Sequence record: DRR378314_1976
Length of the DNA: 38,503 nt
Reading direction: 5' to 3' (one strand)
Below are positions 19,689 through 31,312 of the stretch, piece by piece. The notes under the pieces are model-generated. The model did not search any database. It was given only the letters and a program-made list of their open reading frames with translations, and had not been told where the DNA came from. The position numbers and the translations under genes are program-made. Every line of letters starts with the position of its first letter. Position 1 is the stretch's first letter.

Positions 19689-21350
19689 ATGATGAAATAT
19701 ATTAAAAGCAAAACGTTAAACATAAAAGACGACACTTTTGCTGGAATTACAGTTTCTTTAGCAATGATTCCAGAAGTTGTTGCGTTTGCTTTTGTTGCTC
19801 AGATAGATCCTTTAGTAGCGCTATCTGGTGCTTTTATTATAGGTTTAATTACTGCAGTTTTTGGAGGAAGACCAGGACTGATTTCTGGTGCGGCTGGAGC
19901 TGTAGCTGTTATTTTTGTAACGATGATTTCTGAAGGACATGCAAAAGGAATGCTTTTAAATACTCCTGTAGATAATATGGGATATTATTATTTATTAGCA
20001 GCTGTAATTTTAATGGGATGTTTTCAAATTGGAGCAGGTTTATTAAAACTAGGTCGTTTTGTGCGTTTAATCCCACATTCTGTAATGATGGGTTTTGTTA
20101 ATGGATTAGCAATTGTAATTTTTATTGCTCAAGTAAAAATGTTTACTCATAAAGAAGCTACAATATCTGCAGAAGGAGTTAAGAGTTATGTGAACATAGC
20201 AATGCACGGAAGTGAATTGTATATAATGTTAGGTTTAGTAGGTTTAACTATGGCAATTATTTGGTTATTACCAAAGTTAACTAAAAAGATTCCCGCAGCA
20301 TTAACAGCAATATTAGTAACAACCGGAATTGTAATTTTTGGAGGTTTAGAAGTAAGTACTGTTGGTTCTTATATAATAGAAGGAGGAGGAAAGGGATTGT
20401 CAGGAGAATTTCCAACTCCAAATACAGAATTGTGGAGAAATTTACCAATTAACTTAGATACATTTATGTTTATTTTACCTTACGCTTTTTTGGCTGCTAG
20501 TGTTGGTTTAATAGAGTCTTTAATGACTATGAATTTAGTTGATGAATTAACCGAATCTCGTGGAAATGGTAATAGAGAGTGTGTTGCTCAAGGAGCTGGA
20601 AATATTATGAGTGGTTTGTTTGGAGGTACTGGTGGCTGTGGTATGATAGGTCAAACGGTAATTAATATTAATGCTGGAGGAAGAGGTAGAGTTTCAGGAA
20701 TTGTTATGTCTTTAACGTTATTAACTTTTATTTTATTTACAGATAAATATATAGAGCAAGTACCGATTGCAGCTTTAGTTGGTGTAATGTTTATGATGGT
20801 AATTGAAACTTTTGCTTGGTCTAGTTTTAGAATTTTAAGAAAAATACCAGCTTCTGATGCATTTGTATTAATAGTGGTTTCTGTGGTTACTGTATTGTTT
20901 GATTTAGCAATTGCAGTATTTGTTGGAGTTATTATTTCTGCCTTAGTTTTTGCATGGGAAAATGCAAAGAAAATTAGAGCAAGAAAACGTGTAAAAGAAG
21001 ATGGTACAAAAGTATATGAGATTTGGGGACCGTTATTTTTTGGAAGTATTTCTGCTTTTAATGAAAAATTTGATCCTAAAAATGACCCCAAAAAGGTAGA
21101 AATTGATTTTGTTGAAGCTAGAATTAGTGATCATTCTGCAATAGAAGCTATTTATGCCTTGGTAGAGAAATATCAAGCTCAGAATAAATCTATAAAACTA
21201 AAACATCTTAGTGAAGATTGTAAAGTCTTGTTGTATAAATCAAGTCCAATTTTTAAAGGGATAATTGAAGAGGCAATTGATGACCCTAGATATCATTTAG
21301 CAGCAAATCCAGAGGATTTTCCAAAACCATTATCAGAATATAAATTTTAA
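19689..21350 (+). CDS. SulP/SLC26 family anion transporter with STAS domain
   Basis: PEVVAFA, GGRPGLISGAAGA, GGCGMIGQTVIN, GPLFFGS, many TM segments. Confidence 0.94.
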   Translation: MMKYIKSKTLNIKDDTFAGITVSLAMIPEVVAFAFVAQIDPLVALSGAFIIGLITAVFGGRPGLISGAAGAVAVIFVTMISEGHAKGMLLNTPVDNMGYYYLLAAVILMGCFQIGAGLLKLGRFVRLIPHSVMMGFVNGLAIVIFIAQVKMFTHKEATISAEGVKSYVNIAMHGSELYIMLGLVGLTMAIIWLLPKLTKKIPAALTAILVTTGIVIFGGLEVSTVGSYIIEGGGKGLSGEFPTPNTELWRNLPINLDTFMFILPYAFLAASVGLIESLMTMNLVDELTESRGNGNRECVAQGAGNIMSGLFGGTGGCGMIGQTVININAGGRGRVSGIVMSLTLLTFILFTDKYIEQVPIAALVGVMFMMVIETFAWSSFRILRKIPASDAFVLIVVSVVTVLFDLAIAVFVGVIISALVFAWENAKKIRARKRVKEDGTKVYEIWGPLFFGSISAFNEKFDPKNDPKKVEIDFVEARISDHSAIEAIYALVEKYQAQNKSIKLKHLSEDCKVLLYKSSPIFKGIIEEAIDDPRYHLAANPEDFPKPLSEYKF

Positions 21351-21958
21351 TGACTAATGAACTTTAGCCATTCATTTGGTGTATTTAAATTTAGAATACA
21401 TAACTCATCAGAAACTTTGACTATTGAAGTTTTTGATGGGTTGTTTTTTTTGATTAGATAGTCTAAACGAGCATCAGAATCAGTTAGATTTATTAGTAAA
21501 AGATTTTTCCAGAAATCATATTTAAGCAGTATTGGATGTCCTCTTTTGTCTTTGTATTTGGGAATTACAATTGTGTTATTTGTCTTTTCCATTAACATTT
21601 GTTCCTTTTGATTAAATAAAGGAACATCAATAGGTAAAATAAAAACGGATTGTTCTTTTTTTAGATGCTTTAAAACAGTCTGTATGTTAGAAAATAACCC
21701 ATATTTAGGTGATGGATTGATAATAACTTTAATGTTTTTTTCTTTAAATTTTACTGGCGTGTTTACAGCTTTTTTTAACCAAGGAATAGCAGAGAAATAC
21801 AATTCTTTGTCAAAACCTAAACCTATAAAAATATCTATACCAATAAATTTCTCTATTTGAGAAAGAATCCAATATTGATTATTATGTTTTAATAAGCCTT
21901 TTGGTATTCCCATTCTAGATGATTTTCCGCCAGCAAGTATCATCAAAGAAGATTTCAT
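21347..21958 (-). CDS. MobA/MocA-like nucleotidyltransferase (probable molybdenum cofactor cytidylyltransferase)
   Basis: ILAGGKSSRMG.PK.LL, DVP, GHPIL, NLNTP; downstream of a Mo-enzyme. Confidence 0.8.
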   Translation of the reverse strand: MKSSLMILAGGKSSRMGIPKGLLKHNNQYWILSQIEKFIGIDIFIGLGFDKELYFSAIPWLKKAVNTPVKFKEKNIKVIINPSPKYGLFSNIQTVLKHLKKEQSVFILPIDVPLFNQKEQMLMEKTNNTIVIPKYKDKRGHPILLKYDFWKNLLLINLTDSDARLDYLIKKNNPSKTSIVKVSDELCILNLNTPNEWLKFISH

Positions 21959-22237
21959 TTAATTAGATATTATGTACATCCAAAGCGTAAAGTTGAAAAG
22001 AATAATAGCATTTACAAGTAGTGTTACCTTATTATAAGCCGACTTTTTCTGTTTGAAAAAGTATTTGTTTAATGAAATTATCAACCAAATAAAACTACTA
22101 AAATAAAGAATGATGATTCCATAATGATACGCAGAAAACACGTTGGTTGTAGAATTTCCAAAAATAACATAGATCAAATATATCAATCCAATTCCAGTTG
22201 CATAAAACCTAACTATATCTATAAGTCCTTTTTTCAT
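21959..22237 (-). CDS. Small hypothetical membrane protein (about 3 TM helices)
   Basis: 92-aa hydrophobic ORF whose stop abuts the MocA-like start. Confidence 0.6.
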   Translation of the reverse strand: MKKGLIDIVRFYATGIGLIYLIYVIFGNSTTNVFSAYHYGIIILYFSSFIWLIISLNKYFFKQKKSAYNKVTLLVNAIILFNFTLWMYIISN

Positions 22238-22265
22238 AAAAAGATTCCCGCCGAAGCGGGAAAAA
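22238..22265 (-). terminator. GC-rich hairpin / probable terminator after the IorB-like gene
   Basis: Minus strand ttcccgc-ttcg-gcgggaa followed by tcttttt. Confidence 0.65.
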
Positions 22266-22277
22266 TAATTTTATTGA

Positions 22278-24470
22278 TTATACAATTCCGTGATCAGATA
22301 ATGGTAGAGTTCGATATCGTTTTCCTGTAGCATTAAAAATAGCATTTACAATAGCTGGTGCAATTGGAGGAACACCTGGCTCTCCAACACCAGTTGGTGC
22401 TTCATCACTATCAACAATAGTTATATCTATTGGCGGCACTTCGTGCATTCTTGTCATGGTATAGTCATGGAAATTACTTTGTTCAATGGCACCGTCTTTG
22501 GCAGTGATTTTTCCATGCAAAGCAATTGACATTCCAAAAACAGCAGCTCCTTCCATTTGATTTAAAACATTGTCTCTGTTTAGTACTAATCCACAATCTA
22601 AAGCTGTCCATATATTATGTACTTTCACTTTATCATTAATTACAGATACTTCTACAACAGAAGCAACATAACTGTAAAAGCTGTAATAAAAAGCGATTCC
22701 TAAACCATGACCTTTAGGTAATTCTCTTCCCCATTTTGCTTTTTTAGCAGCAATATGCATTACATTTTTTAAACGTTTTGTATTTAATGGATGAGGAGAT
22801 TTTTCTTCTCTTACTCGATCTTTTCCTATTAGGTTTAGTTTAAACTGTAGAGGATCTTTTTCTGCAGCATTGGCTAATTCATCAATAAAAGAATTAATTC
22901 CGAAACTGTGAAAAATAGCACATACAGAACGTAGCCATCCAATTCTAACATGAGGTTCTGCTTTGCCATTTTCGTAACGTGTATTTGCAATTTCAAAAGG
23001 ATTGTTATTCATACCCTGACCAATTTCCCATCCAGCAGCATAATTTGCTCCAGGCATAAAAGTTGAATTAATACTCGGAAAAGCAGTTCTATGCAACCAT
23101 CCAGTAACATCTCCTTTTTGATCTAGTGATGCTTTTAAATATTGTGCATTTGTAGTATGAAAATATCCATGTTGGATATCGTCTTCTCTTGTCCAAACAA
23201 TCTGTACTGGAGCATTCATTTTCTTAGATAAAGCAACTGCTTCTACTACGAAATCTGGTTTCGATTTTCGTCCAAATCCTCCACCTAAAAAAGTTACGTT
23301 AATTGTTACGTTTTCTTTGTCAATTCCTAAAAATTTAGCTGCTTCTTCTCTAGCAGATTGAGGTGATTGAACTGGAGCCCAAACTTCACACTTTCCATCA
23401 TGCACCCATGCCAATGCATTAGGAACTTCCATAGGAGCATGTGCTAAATGTGGTAATTGATACGTTGCCTCAATAGTTTTTGTAGCATTAGAAAAAGCTT
23501 TGTTTATATTGCCATTTGTTGGTGGTACAACTTTAGCTCTTGCATGAACTCTATTGGTTAATTTTTGAGTATAGTTTTTGCTATTATATTTACTGTTACT
23601 GCCAAAATTCCATTCAATCTCTAAGTTGTTTTTGCCTTGTATGGCTGACCATGTATTAGAGGCGATTACAGCAATTCCTCCTAGCATTCCAAAAGGTCTT
23701 TTTACTCTGTCAACCTCAAATACGTCTTCAACACCAGCTATTTTTAGAGCTGCTGTTTTGTCAAAACTTTTAACAGTTCCAAATGCTGAAGGACAACGTG
23801 CAATAACTGCAAATTTCATATTAGGTAAACGAGCATCTATTCCATAAGTTGCAGATCCATGAGTAAAGTCTTTAATGTCTATACTCTTTAGTTTTTTACC
23901 AATATATTTAAAATCCTTTTTGTCTTTTAATTTTACCTTTTCTGGGACCTTTATGGTCATAGCTCCTTCAACTAAATCTCCAAAAAAGATCTTTTTATTG
24001 TTCTTTTTATTAATTACAAAATGGTTTTCTGCTTTACAATCTGTCGCAGCTACTTGCCATTTTTTGGCAGCAGCTTCTATTAAAATTGCTTTAGCTGTTG
24101 CACCCATTTTACGCATTGGTTCTAAAATAGTTCTTACACTACGAGAACCATCTGTGTTTTGATTTCCAAATTTCTTATTTCCTGTTGCTTGCTCTACAGA
24201 AACATATTTCCAATCAGCTTCCATTTCATCAGCAATAGCAGAAGTAAGTGAGGTTCTGATTCCTTGCCCCATCTCAGAACGAGCACACAATAGAATCAAT
24301 TTACCATCTTTTTTTAACTGAATAAATAAATTAGGAGCAAATGTGGTTCCGTCATCAATTCGTACAATTTCTTTTTCTGATGTAAATTGACATCCAATAA
24401 TTAATCCTCCAGAAGCTAAACCAAAAACTTTAACAAAATTTCTACGGCTCATATTTTGAATACCTTCCAT
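22278..24470 (-). CDS. Xanthine dehydrogenase family molybdopterin-binding subunit (IorB-like), Tat signal
   Basis: SRRNFVK Tat motif, [42 protein letters not shown]. Confidence 0.93.
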
Positions 24471-24472
24471 AT

Positions 24473-24928
24473 CTATTTATTTTTAAGTTTAATTGCTTTA
24501 TGAATAGCTTTTCTTATTCTAGGATACGTTCCGCATCTACATATGTTTCCGCTCATAGCATTGTCAATGTCTTCATCTGTAGGGTTTGGATTGCTATTCA
24601 ATAAAGAAGTTGCTGCAATTAATTGCCCAGATTGACAATATCCACATTGAGGTACATTTATTTCTTCCCAGGCTTCTCTTAAATATTCAAGATTTTTAGA
24701 TTCTCCTTCTATTGTTGTAATTTGTTTTCCATAACCATAGCTTACAGGTAAGCTACATGATCTAACTACTTCATTGTCAATAAGAATAGAGCAAGCGCCA
24801 CATTGGCTTACTCCACAGCCATATTTTGTGCCTGTTAACCCTATAATATCTCTAATTGCCCACAATAGAGGCATATCTGAAGGAGCATCTATATTGTGAC
24901 TTTTTCCGTTAATTGTGAGTGTTTTCAA
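24473..24928 (-). CDS. [2Fe-2S]-binding subunit (IorA-like)
   Basis: GTKYGCGVSQCGACS, RSC, QCGYCQSGQ, NICRCGTY; TTG start. Confidence 0.94.
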   Translation of the reverse strand: MKTLTINGKSHNIDAPSDMPLLWAIRDIIGLTGTKYGCGVSQCGACSILIDNEVVRSCSLPVSYGYGKQITTIEGESKNLEYLREAWEEINVPQCGYCQSGQLIAATSLLNSNPNPTDEDIDNAMSGNICRCGTYPRIRKAIHKAIKLKNK

Positions 24929-25127
24929 TTGGTTGATTTTTTATGCTTACTAAGTTACATTTTTTTTAAAGGATTTTGAAAATTTAACTGAATTTAACTT
25001 TTAAAGGGTTTTTATATAATTAATAGGTTGATAGTTTTTTTAGGCTCTTTAAAAAAGGTATATTAGCAATAATGCTAAAAAATGGAGGGTATTCTCTAAT
25101 TTATTGCATAAGAAATAATAAAAACGA

Positions 25128-25709
25128 TTGGATTCCAGTAGAAAAACATCAAAAGACTTAAATACACTTTCAGAATTAGTTCAAGTTCTTGATGAAGTAG
25201 ATAGGAAAAATTACACAAGCATTTTAAAATCATTACAATTACCAAGTACAGAATTTGAGAAATTTGCATCTTGGTCTGATACCTGTTATACAAGAAATTG
25301 TATTGCTGAAAATGAGAAATTTGAGTTGATTTTGATTTGTTGGCAAGAAGGGCAAGAAACTTCTATACACGATCATGGTGGAGAAGAATGTTGGGTAAAT
25401 ATTATTGAAGGAAAGTTTATAGAAGATATCTATAAAAAAAATGATGAAGGAAAACTTGAAATCATGAAAACTAGTAAATCTGAAAAAGGCGCTGTTACTT
25501 ATATGGTAGACTTTATGGGATATCATAGTTTAAAAAATAATTCTCAAGCAAGAAGTATGTCTTTGCACTTATATGCCAAGCCTATTAGAAACTGTAATGT
25601 TTATGATTCAGAAAATAATTCGTTTAGTCGTAAGGAATTATCCTATGATAACGTCGAAAAGAACAAAGAGTTAAATAAAATAAATAAAGAAAGTATATGT
25701 CTGAATTAA
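25128..25709 (+). CDS. Cysteine dioxygenase (Arg-type, retains crosslink Cys)
   Basis: YTRN, CWQEGQETSIHDHGGEEC, GYH, SLHLY; TTG start. Confidence 0.9.
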   Translation: MDSSRKTSKDLNTLSELVQVLDEVDRKNYTSILKSLQLPSTEFEKFASWSDTCYTRNCIAENEKFELILICWQEGQETSIHDHGGEECWVNIIEGKFIEDIYKKNDEGKLEIMKTSKSEKGAVTYMVDFMGYHSLKNNSQARSMSLHLYAKPIRNCNVYDSENNSFSRKELSYDNVEKNKELNKINKESICLN

Positions 25710-27085
25710 GTAATGATTTAATTCTATTTAATGAGTTAGTAGAAGTTTTATTAAAAGAAGAAGAAAATCATCCAGTTGCAAAGCGAATTGATTCAGTCGA
25801 ATTATATAACACTATAGATTTATCTTTAAATGAAACATCATTATTAGATGATCAATTTAAAATTGTTTTAAAAGAAGTGCTAATTGCTACTCCAAAAACC
25901 GCAACCAATTTATTTTTCAATCAATTATTTGGAGGTAGACAAAGTAAAGCTGTTTTGGGAGATTTATTAGCAGTTTTATTAAATAATAGTATGTATACCT
26001 ATAAAGTGGCTGGACCACAAGTAGGAATTGAACAAGAAATCATTAGAAAATCTTGTGATATGATTGGTTATGGGGATCAAAGTAATGGGACATTTCCAAC
26101 TGGAGGATCTATGAGTAATTATATGGCTTTGATTATGGCAAGAGACGCCAAAGATCCTGCTTGTAGACATGAAGGGATTACCAAATCTATGATAATGTAT
26201 ACATCTAAAGAGTCTCATTACTCTAACGCTAAAAACGCAAGTTTTGCGGGTTTAGGAAGAAAAAACGTAAGATATATAGCTTCTGATGAGAAAGGAAAAA
26301 TGATTCCAGAAAAATTAGAAGAACAGATATTAATCGATTTAGAGAATGGATTAACTCCAACATTTGTTAATGCAACTGCTGGAACAACAGTTTTAGGAGC
26401 TTTTGATCCTATAGATGCACTTGCAGATATTTCAGAAAAATATAAAATATGGCTTCATGTAGATGGTGCTTATTGTGGTTCTGTAATGTTTAGTGATGCA
26501 AAAAAGCATCTTTTAAAAGGAGTCGAAAGGTCTAATTCATTTAGTTATAATGCTCATAAAATGATTGGAACACCTATGACATGTTCTATTATTTTGGTAA
26601 ATGATAAAAAGCAACTGCACGATTCTTTTAGTAATGAAGCAGATTATTTATACCAAACTGATGGAGATGATTTTAATTTAGGAAAAACATCTTTTCAATG
26701 TGGTAGAAGAAACGATGCATTAAAATTTTGGACTTTATGGAAGTCTTTAGGAACCAATGGATTAAAGACAATTGTAGATCAGCAATTTGATTTAGCAGAA
26801 GTAGCAAGAAACTATGTTGCAAACCATCCAGATTATACCTTGTACAGTTTTGAAGATTCTATATCAATATGTTTTAATTATAAGGGGATTGATCCGAAGA
26901 CTTTGTGTACTTTATTGTATCAGTATCAAATAACAGTAGTTGGTTTTGGAGCGTTTAAAGAAAAAGAATTTGTGAGATTAGTTACCATTAACGCTACAAA
27001 TTCTAAAGAGGATATACTTAACTTCTTTAAAGTTTTAGAGAGTTTTGTTGAAGAAAATGAATCTGTTTTAGAGGCAGTATATTAA
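25697..27085 (+). CDS. Group II PLP-dependent decarboxylase, probable cysteine sulfinic acid decarboxylase
   Basis: FFNQLF-x19-SMY, GGSMSN, SHYS, TAGTTVLGAFD, LHVDGA, NAHK (PLP Lys), QCGRR; 13-nt overlap with the CDO gene. Confidence 0.85.
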   Translation: MSELSNDLILFNELVEVLLKEEENHPVAKRIDSVELYNTIDLSLNETSLLDDQFKIVLKEVLIATPKTATNLFFNQLFGGRQSKAVLGDLLAVLLNNSMYTYKVAGPQVGIEQEIIRKSCDMIGYGDQSNGTFPTGGSMSNYMALIMARDAKDPACRHEGITKSMIMYTSKESHYSNAKNASFAGLGRKNVRYIASDEKGKMIPEKLEEQILIDLENGLTPTFVNATAGTTVLGAFDPIDALADISEKYKIWLHVDGAYCGSVMFSDAKKHLLKGVERSNSFSYNAHKMIGTPMTCSIILVNDKKQLHDSFSNEADYLYQTDGDDFNLGKTSFQCGRRNDALKFWTLWKSLGTNGLKTIVDQQFDLAEVARNYVANHPDYTLYSFEDSISICFNYKGIDPKTLCTLLYQYQITVVGFGAFKEKEFVRLVTINATNSKEDILNFFKVLESFVEENESVLEAVY

Positions 27086-29195: not shown

Positions 29196-30233
29196 ATGCA
29201 GGAGGAAAATACAAACGATATAGAAAACGACGATTTATACGAACATTATAGGTTTACTGCTAGTGAAGGACAAGAACCTTTACGTGTAGATAAATTTTTA
29301 ATGAATTTTGTGGAAAATGCTACTCGTAATAAAGTACAACAAGCAGCAAAAGCAGGAAATGTCTTGGTAAATGATGTTGCTGTTAAGTCTAATTACAAAG
29401 TGAAGCCTAATGATGTTGTACGTGTAGTATTAGCACATCCACCAGCAGAAAATTTATTAGTAGCAGAAGATATTCCGTTAGATATTGTATATGAAGATGA
29501 AGCCGTTATTGTGGTTAATAAAGCGCCAGGAATGGTAGTACATCCTGGGCACGGAAACTATTCTGGAACTTTAGTTAATGGATTAATTCATCATATAGAA
29601 AATTTACCAACCAACTCTAATGAACGTCCAGGGTTAGTGCACAGGATTGACAAAGATACAAGTGGGTTATTAGTTGTTGCGAAAACAGAATATGCCATGG
29701 CACATTTGTCAAAGCAGTTTTTTGACAGAACTACTGAACGATTGTATTATGCACTTGTTTGGGGTAATATTGAAGAAGACGAAGGTAGGATTGAAGGAAA
29801 TATTGGACGAAGTTTTAAAAACCGCTTACAAATGGATGTTTTCCCAGAAGGTGATTTTGGAAAACATGCAGTTACTCATTTTAAAGTTTTAGAACGATTA
29901 ACTTATGTAACACTAGTGCAGTGTAAATTAGAAACCGGTAGAACACATCAAATAAGAGCCCATTTTAAGCATATTGGTCATACACTTTTTAATGATGAAC
30001 GTTATGGCGGAGATGATATTTTAAAAGGGACAACGTTTACCAAATACAAGCAATTTGTACAGAATTGTTTTAAAACATTGCCAAGACAAGCATTACATGC
30101 AAAGACCTTAGGTTTTGAACATCCAACAACAGGGGAATTTATGAGATTTAATTCAGAAGTTCCTGAAGATATTGAATCTTGTTTAGAAAAATGGAGAACC
30201 TATTCTGAAAATTCTAATCACGAGATTCAATAA
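29196..30233 (+). CDS. rluD: RluA-family 23S rRNA pseudouridine synthase RluD
   Basis: S4 domain, NKAPGMVVHPG, catalytic HRIDKDTSG, LETGRTHQIR, QALHA. Confidence 0.93.
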   Translation: MQEENTNDIENDDLYEHYRFTASEGQEPLRVDKFLMNFVENATRNKVQQAAKAGNVLVNDVAVKSNYKVKPNDVVRVVLAHPPAENLLVAEDIPLDIVYEDEAVIVVNKAPGMVVHPGHGNYSGTLVNGLIHHIENLPTNSNERPGLVHRIDKDTSGLLVVAKTEYAMAHLSKQFFDRTTERLYYALVWGNIEEDEGRIEGNIGRSFKNRLQMDVFPEGDFGKHAVTHFKVLERLTYVTLVQCKLETGRTHQIRAHFKHIGHTLFNDERYGGDDILKGTTFTKYKQFVQNCFKTLPRQALHAKTLGFEHPTTGEFMRFNSEVPEDIESCLEKWRTYSENSNHEIQ

Positions 30234-31312
30234 TTACTTTTTTTTTGGATAAACTGACCTAATTTATTCATAGCACTTATTGTACCTTTTTTAAAAGCCT
30301 TTTTTACAAACAAGAATATTAATAATTTTTTTATTGGAGATTTTGCTTCTAAAATAACTTCTGTTTCTAACAAGCAAGAATTGGCATTAATAGGTGTAAT
30401 TATTTGGTATTGATATACCTTATCTACAGGAGCAGGACTCGATGTCATTTCTCCGTAAATTAACTGACCAGGCTTTCCTTGTTTAGTAATTGTAGTAAAA
30501 TTTAGATGTTTGTCTTTAATAATACAAATATGTTCTGTACCAATTCTGTTTACTTCTTCTGCTTTAAATTTTAATTCTACACTTTCATCCAACCAGAATT
30601 TACGAAGCTGAAAATTAGTAAGATATTCTAATAAATCATTTGCAGCAATCTTAAACGAATTCTTAATTACAAAATTAGGCTTTTGAAGATGCTCAATTTT
30701 TATTGCAAGCTGAAAAGGTTTAAGCTGTAACTCCTTTTTATCTATAGTAGAGTATAAGTAATCTATTGTGTTAGAATCATAAATGTCTCTGCCAGTTTTA
30801 AAGTTGTACAACTTAGTTTGATAAGATTCAGATAATTGAATATGCTTTGTAAGTTCTTGGCTAAACAAAACATAATTATTGCTTTTTACAGAATTCTTTA
30901 ACAGTCTATGAGCTTCAATTACTTGTTTTCCAAAAGGTTTTCTGTTGTTTTGAACTGTAATAAATTGCAATTCGCCGCAATGCACAACAATTTTTAATTC
31001 TAAATTTGGTGCTGTAGAGCAAGCATTACACGGACAAATTCTGTTGTTTTCTAATAATTTTAAATGACTATAAAAAGCAGTAAACATATGTTCTACTTGT
31101 GCCAATAGTTTTTCTATAGATGGTATTTCATTCTCTTTATAAAAAAACAAAGCATCACCTTCAATTTCTGCTAATTGTAAATTTTCTGTATTTGCATCAA
31201 TCAATACTTCTAGTAATTCTGAAATTACATGCTGACTATGTTCTACCTCTGTATTTTGTACAAACTGTGTAAATCCAGAAATATCAGGTAAAAAAAGTAA
31301 AGATGATTGCAT
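30227..31312 (-). CDS. DUF2652 (class III nucleotide cyclase-like) domain fused to SRPBCC-like domain
   Basis: PDISGFT, EIEGDA, CPCNAC, LK.VVH.GE, VIEAHRLLKN; C-terminal START-like region (NRIGTEHIC). Confidence 0.75.
   Translation of the reverse strand: MQSSLLFLPDISGFTQFVQNTEVEHSQHVISELLEVLIDANTENLQLAEIEGDALFFYKENEIPSIEKLLAQVEHMFTAFYSHLKLLENNRICPCNACSTAPNLELKIVVHCGELQFITVQNNRKPFGKQVIEAHRLLKNSVKSNNYVLFSQELTKHIQLSESYQTKLYNFKTGRDIYDSNTIDYLYSTIDKKELQLKPFQLAIKIEHLQKPNFVIKNSFKIAANDLLEYLTNFQLRKFWLDESVELKFKAEEVNRIGTEHICIIKDKHLNFTTITKQGKPGQLIYGEMTSSPAPVDKVYQYQIITPINANSCLLETEVILEAKSPIKKLLIFLFVKKAFKKGTISAMNKLGQFIQKKSNY

What the first reader, a model, noticed from the sequence alone, without database searches (positions are those of the whole stretch)
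25128..27085. Overlapping CDO + CSAD-motif decarboxylase: animal-type hypotaurine/taurine synthesis operon in a flavobacterium
Seen: a cysteine dioxygenase overlaps by 13 nt a group II PLP decarboxylase carrying F78-x19-S98-x-Y100 (FFNQLF...NNSMYTY). Known: this F-x19-S-x-Y triad marks cysteine sulfinic acid decarboxylases, whereas GAD has S-x19-N-x-F, and CDO then CSAD is the animal route cysteine to cysteine sulfinate to hypotaurine. CDO-CSAD pairs have been reported in a few marine bacteria, so the pairing itself is not new. Inference: this organism makes hypotaurine/taurine as an osmolyte, antioxidant or lipid headgroup, although marine bacteria are mostly viewed as taurine consumers. Caveat: insect aspartate 1-decarboxylases have a similar triad, and coaD is adjacent, so beta-alanine synthesis is an alternative.
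Basis: partly seen in the sequence, partly recalled or inferred. Interest (0 to 1): 0.8.

Follow-up and report, generated by a model that had tools for sequence, protein, structure and literature searches.

The report
Bacterial cysteine-to-hypotaurine gene pair
This marine flavobacterium (Polaribacter-like) carries two tightly linked genes, a cysteine dioxygenase and a cysteine-sulfinate-type decarboxylase, that most likely turn cysteine into hypotaurine (the precursor of taurine); the reading is sound, but the pathway was described for marine bacteria in 2013 and turns out to be common in marine Bacteroidota.

Summary
A 193-aa cysteine dioxygenase (CDO, 25128-25709) overlaps by 13 nt a 462-aa group II PLP decarboxylase (25697-27085). 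The decarboxylase has F78/S98/Y100 aligned without gaps to F94/S114/Y116 of human CSAD.

The interpretation, cysteine to cysteine sulfinate to hypotaurine, survives every in-silico test I could run.
- The best solved-structure matches are mouse and human CSAD.
- The CDO keeps the 3-His iron site, the substrate Arg, the Ser-His-Tyr triad and the Cys of the Cys-Tyr cofactor.
- CDO sits directly upstream of the decarboxylase in 73 of 80 related loci.
- A natural CDO-decarboxylase fusion exists.

The beta-alanine caveat fails.
- coaD is a neighbour in only 10 of 80 loci.
- Canonical panD co-occurs in 40 of 41 decarboxylase-positive Flavobacteriaceae genomes.

By phylogeny the enzyme lies in a bacterial clade, not among the animal enzymes.

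In 42 of 80 loci the pair has a divergent PutP-like Na+/solute symporter beside it; the window has none. In Polaribacter the pair fills a variable slot, which suggests lateral spread.

This is a new member of a known kind (Agnello et al. 2013). This scan had found it before on other DNA (e1-4421355, e1-2259454). No enzyme assay or metabolite data exist for this organism, so its physiological role remains inferred.

The parts
25128..25709 (+). Cysteine dioxygenase (CDO type I, Arg-type), 193 aa, TTG start
   Evidence: PF05995, 94.5 bits. Human CDO1 6bgf scores 83.1 bits, E 1.6e-22, against 48.3 bits for the Bacillus-type 3eqe. Y54, R56, H81, H83, C88, H133, S145, H147 and Y149 match rat/human Y58, R60, H86, H88, C93, H140, S153, H155 and Y157. 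TTG start is conserved in 6 relatives.
25697..27085 (+). CSAD-type group II PLP decarboxylase, 462 aa
   Evidence: PF00282, 244.8 bits. Mouse CSAD 6zek 271.5 bits, human CSAD 2jis 270.7, GADL1 261.1, GAD65 244.3. F78/S98/Y100 triad, H174 and PLP-lysine K288. All NCBIfam equivalog models score far below their cut-offs.
25697..25709 (+). 13-nt overlap of the CDO stop region with the decarboxylase start (translational coupling inferred)
   Evidence: The same -13 overlap occurs in L002, L004, L006 and L008. Across 73 loci the spacing is -13 to +38 nt, median 15, and the genes are always co-directional.
24929..25127 (.). 199-nt divergent intergenic region between the Mo-enzyme small subunit gene and the CDO. 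Presumed promoter region of the pair; it holds a stretch (AATAATGCTAAAAA...) conserved in relatives about 45-60 nt before the start codon.
   Evidence: Sequence and relatives. No promoter is shown: the sigma-70 consensus scan gave no more than chance (17 found against 18.5 expected), and no TAnnTTTG box was found.

Best explanation
A two-gene operon makes hypotaurine from L-cysteine.

Step 1. The CDO, a cupin with a 3-His Fe(II) site, an Arg that holds the substrate carboxylate, and a Cys/Tyr pair able to form the Cys-Tyr cofactor, adds O2 to the thiol of L-cysteine and gives L-cysteine sulfinate.

Step 2. The PLP decarboxylase (Schiff-base lysine K288, CSAD specificity triad F78/S98/Y100) removes the alpha-carboxyl and gives hypotaurine plus CO2. 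The same enzyme type also converts cysteate to taurine.

Hypotaurine is then presumably oxidised to taurine, either non-enzymatically or by an unidentified enzyme.

What is shown: the genes, their domains, the catalytic and specificity residues, the tight operon linkage, co-occurrence across genomes, and a natural fusion of the two enzymes.

What is inferred: the substrates, the product, translational coupling through the 13-nt overlap, and the role. I favour a compatible solute and/or antioxidant in a marine, oxygen- and salt-exposed flavobacterium. In most other carriers a PutP-like Na+ symporter next door may take the product, or a precursor, back up.

The pair looks laterally acquired in this lineage.
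For: - Domains.
- Closest solved structures are CSADs: 271.5 and 270.7 bits, ahead of GADL1 and the GADs.
- The triad aligns without gaps to human F94/S114/Y116 (numbering from passages). F/S/Y plus His plus Lys is present in 81 of 81 sequences of the window's clade.
- CDO active-site residues, including R60 (Arg-type) and C93, are present in 72 of 74 CDOs of the clade. The other 2 are N-terminally truncated ORF calls.
- CDO is directly upstream in 73 of 80 loci, co-directional in 73 of 73, with a median gap of 15 nt.
- In 301 Flavobacteriaceae genomes, 19 of 20 CDO-positive genomes carry the decarboxylase.
- Natural fusion P0121 (634 aa): CDO at residues 16-185, 39.5% identical to the window's CDO, joined to the decarboxylase at 186-632, 59% identical.
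- panD is present in 5 of 5 close genomes and in 40 of 41 decarboxylase-positive genomes.
- In 5 close relatives no Xsc scored over the cut-off (0 of 5) and no TauD was found (0 of 5). They therefore lack the usual taurine-degrading genes.
- JGI names relatives 'sulfinoalanine decarboxylase'.
- Literature: CSAD of Synechococcus PCC 7335 was expressed and characterised (passages). The cysteine route to taurine is stated for 'marine cyanobacteria and marine flavobacteria' (passage of PMC12585060).
Against: - No biochemical or metabolite data exist for this protein or organism.
- The F/S/Y triad is shared by an insect enzyme named aspartate 1-decarboxylase (P0262), so the triad alone does not exclude aspartate.
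- The Cys of the human C190-H191-Y192 loop is Ser in the window.
- 22 of 41 decarboxylase-positive Flavobacteriaceae genomes showed no PF05995 CDO. In those, mostly of the 57-67% identity sister clade, the enzyme must be fed otherwise or act on something else.
- No enzyme for hypotaurine-to-taurine oxidation was identified.
- The window and its 11-member subclade lack the symporter beside the pair.
- No NCBIfam model reaches its cut-off.
- Expression is not shown.
Confidence: 0.75

Rival explanations
1. The decarboxylase is a PLP-dependent aspartate 1-decarboxylase that makes beta-alanine for pantothenate and CoA.
For: An insect protein named aspartate 1-decarboxylase carries the same F/S/Y triad (P0262). 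Human CSAD slowly decarboxylates aspartate (abstract and passages of PMC8153620). coaD lies 7 nt downstream. JGI names for some relatives include 'aspartate 1-decarboxylase'.
Against: coaD is convergent, not co-transcribed, and is a neighbour in only 10 of 80 loci. Pyruvoyl panD (PF02261) is present in 5 of 5 close genomes and in 40 of 41 decarboxylase-positive genomes; the one miss is a 1.7-Mb partial genome. The constant partner is a CDO, even fused to it, and a CDO has no role in beta-alanine synthesis. PanP model TIGR03799 scores 127.6 bits against a cut-off of 606.1.
Confidence: 0.06
2. The pair is mainly a cysteine disposal (detoxification) route. Excess cysteine is oxidised and decarboxylated, and hypotaurine is only an excreted end product with no function of its own.
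For: Bacterial CDOs were first described as a cysteine-degradation route (cited in passages of PMC4019311). Close relatives lack known taurine-degrading genes, so the product would accumulate or leave the cell. The window has no dedicated transporter beside the pair.
Against: Cysteine sulfinate can be removed by transamination to pyruvate and sulfite without a dedicated decarboxylase (pathway stated in PMC4019311). The decarboxylase is very strongly conserved, at 75-86% identity across classes of Bacteroidota. In 42 of 80 loci it is teamed with a Na+-driven uptake-type symporter. Both points fit a product that is valued better than one that is discarded.
Confidence: 0.12
3. The physiological substrate of the decarboxylase is L-cysteate, giving taurine directly. 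The CDO is then only one of several feeders.
For: CSADs accept cysteate (PMC8153620). 22 of 41 decarboxylase-positive Flavobacteriaceae genomes have no detectable CDO yet keep the triad: 15 of 17 sampled have F/S/Y and 2 have Y/S/Y. From my own knowledge, not tested here: many Bacteroidota make cysteate for sulfonolipids.
Against: In the window's own clade the CDO is present in 73 of 80 loci and is operon-linked. Its product is cysteine sulfinate, the better CSAD substrate in the human enzyme. No cysteate-forming gene was seen in the conserved neighbourhood.
Confidence: 0.07

Closest known systems
Bacterial CDO/CSAD taurine pathway (Agnello et al. 2013, ACS Chem Biol 8:2264; CSAD of Synechococcus sp. 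PCC 7335). I could not read the paper itself (PMC3815685 is not held) and know it only through passages of citing papers.
   Same: A CDO gene lies next to a CSAD-type decarboxylase identified by the x19-S-x-Y motif, in a marine bacterium, with the same predicted chemistry. A citing paper says the route occurs in 'marine cyanobacteria and marine flavobacteria'.
   Different: The Synechococcus enzyme has W-x19-S-x-Y, whereas the window has the mammalian F-x19-S-x-Y. Here the pair overlaps by 13 nt. In most other Bacteroidota carriers it comes with a divergent PutP-like symporter. The flavobacterial enzymes are not characterised in any paper my searches found.
Mammalian CSAD (PDB 2JIS human, 6ZEK mouse) and GADL1 (6ENZ)
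   Same: Best structural-database matches at 271, 270 and 261 bits. Identical F/S/Y triad, PLP lysine, His-Tyr of the active-site loop and Tyr of the catalytic loop.
   Different: About 30-50 residues shorter at the N-terminus. The Cys of the CHY loop is Ser. It belongs to a bacterial clade, separate from the animal clade.
Mammalian cysteine dioxygenase CDO1 (PDB 6BGF, 2B5H)
   Same: 3-His site, Arg60, Tyr58, Ser153-His155-Tyr157 and Cys93 are all conserved. It scores higher against mammalian CDO (83 bits) than against the Bacillus-type CDO (48 bits). Cys93 is called prototypical of eukaryotic CDOs and is missing from many bacterial ones (passages of PMC4019311).
   Different: It is bacterial, 193 aa, and linked in an operon to its downstream enzyme. 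Formation of the cross-link is not shown.
Insect aspartate 1-decarboxylase / CSAD (e.g. Ischnura protein P0262)
   Same: Same family and the same F/S/Y triad.
   Different: Different clade. The insect enzymes make beta-alanine for cuticle, whereas here panD already supplies beta-alanine. A residue said to confer aspartate preference in the mosquito enzyme (Q377, recalled from Liu et al. 2012, which I did not see) could not be mapped.

Membership tests
[quoted passage not shown] | Pyridoxal_deC fold-type I domain | tested here: met
   PF00282, 244.8 bits, residues 67-396.
[quoted passage not shown] | PLP-binding lysine (human K305) | tested here: met
   K288 in NAHK aligns with NPHK of human and mouse CSAD. 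It is conserved in 98 of 98 Bacteroidota sequences.
[quoted passage not shown] | Substrate-selectivity triad F94-x19-S114-x-Y116 (W also accepted at the first position) | tested here: met
   F78/S98/Y100 in a gap-free alignment. Present in 81 of 81 sequences of the clade. Motif definition from passages.
[quoted passage not shown] | Active-site loop C190-H191-Y192 and catalytic-loop tyrosine (human S331-K341) | tested here: inconclusive
   The window has S-H-Y (SKESHYS against SKECHYS). His and Tyr are kept and Cys is replaced by Ser. The loop Tyr is kept (ADYLYQ against ASYLFQ). The weight of the Cys is unknown to me.
[quoted passage not shown] | Decarboxylates cysteine sulfinate or cysteate in preference to Asp or Glu | not testable with these tools
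   Needs an enzyme assay.
Animal CSAD/GADL1/GAD/ADC clade (descent) | Branches within or next to the animal enzymes | tested here: not met
   FastTree of 142 rows. The window lies in a 13-row Bacteroidota clade (support 99) inside a 36-row clade (support 100) that includes a cluster named Gemmatimonadales. The animal representatives (insect P0262, shark P0248) lie in another part of the tree. The tree is FastTree only, with weak deep branches.
Cysteine dioxygenase type I, Arg-type (EC 1.13.11.20) | CDO_I cupin domain with the 3-His iron site (H86, H88, H140) | tested here: met
   PF05995, 94.5 bits. H81, H83 and H133 align.
Cysteine dioxygenase type I, Arg-type (EC 1.13.11.20) | Arg60, which binds the cysteine carboxylate (Gln here marks 3-mercaptopropionate dioxygenases) | tested here: met
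   R56 in YTRN aligns with YTRN of human CDO. The Arg/Gln distinction comes from passages of PMC8050391.
Cysteine dioxygenase type I, Arg-type (EC 1.13.11.20) | Ser153-His155-Tyr157 triad | tested here: met
   SLHLY is identical to the human sequence. S/T-H-Y is present in all 82 aligned sequences.
Cysteine dioxygenase type I, Arg-type (EC 1.13.11.20) | Cys93-Tyr157 cross-link (eukaryote-typical) | tested here: inconclusive
   The Cys (C88) and the Tyr are both present, here and in all 80 Bacteroidota CDOs aligned. Whether the thioether forms needs mass spectrometry or a structure.
Bacterial CDO/CSAD taurine pathway (Agnello 2013) | CDO and CSAD genes adjacent or co-transcribed | tested here: met
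   13-nt overlap. Adjacent in 73 of 80 loci. Transcription itself is not shown.
Bacterial CDO/CSAD taurine pathway (Agnello 2013) | Hypotaurine or taurine detectable in cells | not testable with these tools
   Needs LC-MS of a cultured carrier.
PLP-dependent aspartate 1-decarboxylase PanP (TIGR03799) | Score over the equivalog cut-off | tested here: not met
   127.6 bits against 606.1.
L-2,4-diaminobutyrate decarboxylase (NF052646; NCBI's name for one Polaribacter relative) | Score over the equivalog cut-off | tested here: not met
   189.2 bits against 900.
Glutamate decarboxylase | S-x19-N-x-F triad (animal GAD), or a TIGR01788 score over the cut-off (bacterial GAD) | tested here: not met
   The triad is F/S/Y, whereas the shark GAD1-like P0248 shows S/N/F at these columns. 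TIGR01788 scores 26.2 bits against 380.4.

The most novel reading that the evidence does not exclude
The (symporter)-CDO-CSAD set is a laterally mobile 'make and recapture' module for hypotaurine/taurine as a compatible solute or antioxidant. On this reading, abundant bloom- and ice-associated marine Bacteroidota (Polaribacter, Tenacibaculum, Dokdonia, Crocinitomicaceae, Saprospiraceae) are net producers of these sulfur metabolites rather than only consumers. Their CDO would use the Cys-Tyr cofactor thought typical of eukaryotes.
Probability: 0.3. Interest if true: 0.55.

Novelty: new member of a known kind. Interest (0 to 1): 0.3.

Why it matters
Taurine and hypotaurine are major currencies of the marine organic sulfur and nitrogen cycle. 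They are usually credited to animals and algae, with bacteria cast as consumers. If the widespread flavobacterial module is active, heterotrophic Bacteroidota are an overlooked bacterial source.

For enzymology, these are compact bacterial versions of CSAD with the exact mammalian specificity triad, and of a CDO that keeps the Cys-Tyr residues. Both could be handy models or biocatalysts for taurine production.

For this window in particular, the result is mostly a correct annotation. NCBI names for relatives range from 'L-2,4-diaminobutyrate decarboxylase' to 'aminotransferase class V-fold enzyme', and these names look wrong or uninformative.

Tried and rejected
- Own genome: none is held, so panD and other genome-wide checks were done on relatives only.
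- Agnello et al. 2013 (PMC3815685) and Mahootchi et al. 2021 (doi 10.1016/j.jsb.2020.107674) are not held. Their content is known only from citing passages. Supplements were not consulted.
- Literature searches for flavobacterial work gave only one paper that mentions flavobacteria in passing: 'cysteine sulfinic acid decarboxylase' + 'cysteine dioxygenase' + bacteria + Flavobacteri (1 paper), hypotaurine + Flavobacteri + 'cysteine dioxygenase' (1 paper), taurine + biosynthesis + Polaribacter + cysteine (8 papers, none on this pathway by title or abstract; one checked), and 'sulfinoalanine decarboxylase' + marine + bacteria (0 papers).
- The search for the mosquito Q377 specificity residue found nothing usable, so that determinant was not mapped.
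- The sigma-70 promoter and terminator scan gave no more than chance. No Bacteroidetes TAnnTTTG box was found in the upstream 199 nt.
- No tRNA gene in the window, so there is no sign here of the tRNA-linked cassette array noted in e1-2089399.
- Sequencing runs: no RNA holder is listed, so expression was not examined and read laying was not used.
- The neighbouring IorAB-like molybdenum enzyme was considered as a hypotaurine oxidase. I rejected this as unsupported because it is a neighbour in only 7-8 of 80 loci.
- SulP permease as a partner: it lies directly upstream of the CDO in L004 and L010 only, which is local Polaribacter synteny.
- Structure prediction, fold search and complex prediction were not run. 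Sequence matches to solved CSAD and CDO structures were already decisive for family, and I make no binding claim.
Full report
**1. What is in the sequence**

Two ORFs on the + strand are open as described. One runs 25128-25709 (193 aa, TTG start) and the other 25697-27085 (462 aa, ATG start). They overlap by 13 nt.

Pfam assigns the first to CDO_I (PF05995, 94.5 bits) and the second to Pyridoxal_deC (PF00282, 244.8 bits). The TTG is the only ATG/GTG/TTG in frame before position 25300, and six relatives have TTG at the same place. G+C is about 0.30, and the nearest relatives are Polaribacter.

**2. The decarboxylase**

Against all PDB sequences the best matches are:
- mouse CSAD 6ZEK, 271.5 bits, E 1.2e-79
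- human CSAD 2JIS, 270.7 bits
- GADL1, 261.1 bits
- GAD65, 244.3 bits
- GAD67, 240.3 bits

Diaminobutyrate and aromatic decarboxylases score far lower.

The printed alignment is gap-free from FFNQLF to YTY. This puts F78/S98/Y100 on the human F94/S114/Y116 triad. That numbering, the PLP lysine K305, the C190-H191-Y192 loop and the S331-K341 loop are taken from passages of bioRxiv 10.64898/2026.08.27.747329. K288 (NAHK) matches K305, and the His-Tyr of the loop and the loop tyrosine are kept. The loop Cys is Ser.

No NCBIfam equivalog reaches its cut-off:
- DABA decarboxylase, 189.2 against 900
- PanP, 127.6 against 606.1
- bacterial GAD, 26.2 against 380.4

It also follows that the triad by itself cannot exclude aspartate.

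**3. The dioxygenase**

Human CDO1 is the best PDB match (83.1 bits, E 1.6e-22). The Bacillus-type CDO scores 48.3 bits.

All residues that define an authentic, Arg-type CDO are present: Y58, R60, H86, H88, H140 and S153-H155-Y157 in rat/human numbering. So is C93, the partner of Y157 in the Cys-Tyr cofactor. The Arg/Gln distinction comes from passages of PMC8050391. The statements that Cys93 is prototypical of eukaryotic CDOs and that many bacterial CDOs lack it come from passages of PMC4019311.

The same nine residues are kept in 72 of 74 CDOs of the window's clade. The other two are N-terminally truncated ORF calls. They are also kept in all 6 CDOs of the sister clade.

**4. Is the pairing real?**

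The best 80 were kept. They are 75-86% identical to the window's decarboxylase.

- In 73 of these 80 loci a CDO lies immediately upstream.
- It is always on the same strand, -13 to +38 nt away, with a median of 15 nt.
- Four relatives share the 13-nt overlap.

In an even sample of 301 Flavobacteriaceae genomes:
- the decarboxylase (E <= 1e-100) is in 41
- PF05995 is in 20
- 19 genomes have both. Fisher p = 8e-18, not corrected for shared ancestry.

A 634-aa protein in the representative library (P0121) is a natural fusion: CDO at residues 16-185 and decarboxylase at 186-632. A second protein, P0128, has a weaker CDO-like N-terminus.

These are three independent lines for a functional link: operon linkage, co-occurrence and fusion.

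**5. The beta-alanine alternative**

coaD is real (TIGR01510, 174.8 bits) but convergent. It is a neighbour in only 10 of 80 loci, all among the closest relatives.

The pyruvoyl panD family PF02261 is present in 5 of 5 close genomes that carry the pair and in 282 of the 301 sampled genomes. Of the 41 decarboxylase-positive genomes, 40 have panD. The exception is a 1.7-Mb partial genome. There is no complementary distribution, so this rival is weak.

**6. Wider anatomy**

In the window's clade the commonest arrangement is a three-gene set. A roughly 510-aa Na+/solute symporter lies divergently upstream of the CDO.
- Family: PF00474, E 7e-77.
- Closest named model: PutP at 343 bits, under its cut-off of 515. 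PanF scores 187 bits against 328.
- The arrangement SSF< CDO> DEC> is seen in 42 of 80 loci.
- The symporter is somewhere in the locus in 51 of 80.
- None is seen in 29 of 80, which includes all 11 loci of the window's subclade and a few loci cut short by contig ends.
- Six of the 7 CDO-less loci still have the symporter next to the decarboxylase.
- Symporter orthologues are 73-100% identical to one another.

The window holds no copy. An orthologue lies elsewhere in 2 of the 4 close genomes that lack it beside the pair, and next to the pair in G003. No other enzyme recurs in the neighbourhood.

**7. History**

*Position in the family.* In a FastTree of 142 rows (the window, 9 Bacteroidota loci and 132 representatives of at least 380 aa taken from the best 150), the window sits in a 13-row Bacteroidota clade (support 99). 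That clade lies inside a 36-row clade (support 100) containing a cluster named Gemmatimonadales. The animal representatives lie elsewhere. About 35 representative clusters score above the level at which animal CSAD scores. 'Animal-type' is therefore a statement about motif and chemistry, not about descent. Deep branches are weak and the method is quick, so I draw no donor or direction from the tree.

*Two clades.* Within Bacteroidota there are two clades.
- One holds 81 rows and is 75-86% identical to the window across Flavobacteriia, Cytophagia and Saprospiria labels. Two MAGs in it are labelled Arenicella and Acidimicrobiia, which may be binning errors. The CDO here is co-directional.
- The other, at 57-67% identity, sits in a stable chromosomal context: nqrB-nqrA, a T9SS plug protein, the decarboxylase, DUF3667, ApaG, then a TseH/DUF6695 gene. 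The CDO here is divergent, or not detected.

*Polaribacter.* The genus appears at two places in the first clade, with two different gene contexts. In 17 Polaribacter loci that keep both flanking anchors, the Mo-enzyme small subunit gene and coaD, only 1 holds the CDO-decarboxylase pair. The other 16 hold a roughly 580-aa M14-peptidase-like gene, with or without a lactonase.

The pair therefore occupies a variable slot in the window's lineage. Together with the flat 75-80% identity across orders, this suggests lateral spread, but MAG labels are too unreliable for proof. Across the phylum the gene is rare: 6 of 301 sampled genomes.

**8. Fate of the product**

Five close relatives have no Xsc over its cut-off (0 of 5; the hits are generic thiamine-diphosphate enzymes) and no TauD (0 of 5). 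The usual taurine desulfonation routes were thus not found in them. This fits a producer better than a consumer, but it does not show what the product is used for.

Osmolyte, antioxidant or exported metabolite all remain inference. A lipid-headgroup role has no support in the neighbourhoods seen.

**9. What is known**

Citing papers state that a taurine pathway was found in bacteria and that the CSAD of Synechococcus sp. PCC 7335 was expressed and purified (PMC8153620). That enzyme carries W-x19-S-x-Y. They also state that the cysteine route exists in 'marine cyanobacteria and marine flavobacteria', citing Agnello et al. 2013 among others (PMC12585060). Another calls bacterial taurine synthesis 'sporadic in distribution' (PMC10356861).

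I could not read Agnello et al. itself. My four searches for experimental work on the flavobacterial enzymes found none.

This scan has reported the same module before on other genomes: e1-4421355 (with symporter and regulator) and e1-2259454 (divergent pair). My counts were made independently here and agree with those notes.

**10. Verdict**

The module is a new member of a known kind. It is ordinary for marine Bacteroidota rather than a rare curiosity, and it is not of animal descent by this tree.

Modest points of interest remain:
- the exact mammalian triad
- the retained Cys-Tyr residues in a bacterial CDO
- the symporter partnership
- the natural fusion
- the signs of mobility
- the unexplained CDO-less carriers

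Interest: 0.3.

Noticed in passing
window 19689-24928: Upstream, on both strands, lie four genes. A SulP-family sulfate permease with a STAS domain is at 19689-21350 (+). A MobA-like nucleotidyltransferase is at 21347-21958 (-). A two-subunit molybdenum hydroxylase of the aldehyde oxidase/xanthine dehydrogenase family occupies 22278-24470 (730 aa; its N-terminus, [16 protein letters not shown]..., looks like a Tat signal by eye) and 24473-24928 (2Fe-2S subunit, TTG start). The substrate is unknown. It is a neighbour of the pair in only 7-8 of 80 loci.
   Followed up: partly
L099-L118 (Polaribacter genomes), interval between the Mo-enzyme small subunit gene and coaD: This interval is a variable slot. 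In 16 of 17 loci with both anchors it holds a roughly 580-aa M14-carboxypeptidase-like gene, with or without a 7-bladed lactonase. In 1 of 17 (L116), and in the window, it holds the CDO-decarboxylase pair.
   Followed up: partly
L082-L087, L089, L092-L094, L096, L097 (Flavobacteriaceae genomes by G handles): These are decarboxylase-positive genomes without a detectable CDO, 22 of 41 in the family sample. The gene keeps the F/S/Y triad (two have Y/S/Y) and, in most of these loci (L094 is an exception), sits in a conserved context: nqrB-nqrA, a T9SS plug protein, the decarboxylase, DUF3667, ApaG, then a TseH/DUF6695 gene. What feeds the enzyme there is open. Earlier scan notes e1-2415053 and e1-2187758 describe a decarboxylase-DUF6695 link.
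   Followed up: partly
P0121 (634 aa) and P0128 (673 aa), protein representatives: These are natural single-chain fusions of a CDO-like N-terminal domain with the CSAD-type decarboxylase. In P0128 the Cys93 position is Trp.
   Followed up: partly
P0143, P0152, P0156, P0235 (907-1103 aa representatives): Each of these proteins has two decarboxylase domains in tandem, with unusual residues at the triad positions (R/P/Y, V/P/L, L/S/L, Y/Y/G). Origin and function are unknown.
   Followed up: no
L053 vs L055; L019; L033: Nearly identical decarboxylases occur in MAGs labelled Roseivirga (Cytophagia) and Cryomorphaceae (Flavobacteriia). Copies also occur in MAGs labelled Arenicella (Gammaproteobacteria) and Acidimicrobiia. 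This is either recent transfer or mis-binning.
   Followed up: no
window 25068-25085 and the same place in L002-L004, L006, L008, L010: A stretch (AATAATGC[T/G]AAAAA...) is conserved about 45-60 nt upstream of the CDO's TTG start across seven sequences. It could be a promoter or an operator.
   Followed up: no
window 30227-31312 (-): A 361-aa protein with a DUF2652 domain (160.5 bits), of unknown function, lies beyond rluD.
   Followed up: no
L015, L076, L077: A peptide methionine sulfoxide reductase (MsrA, PF01625) gene lies near the decarboxylase in 3 loci. This is a faint hint of an oxidative-stress theme, but too few cases to weigh.
   Followed up: no
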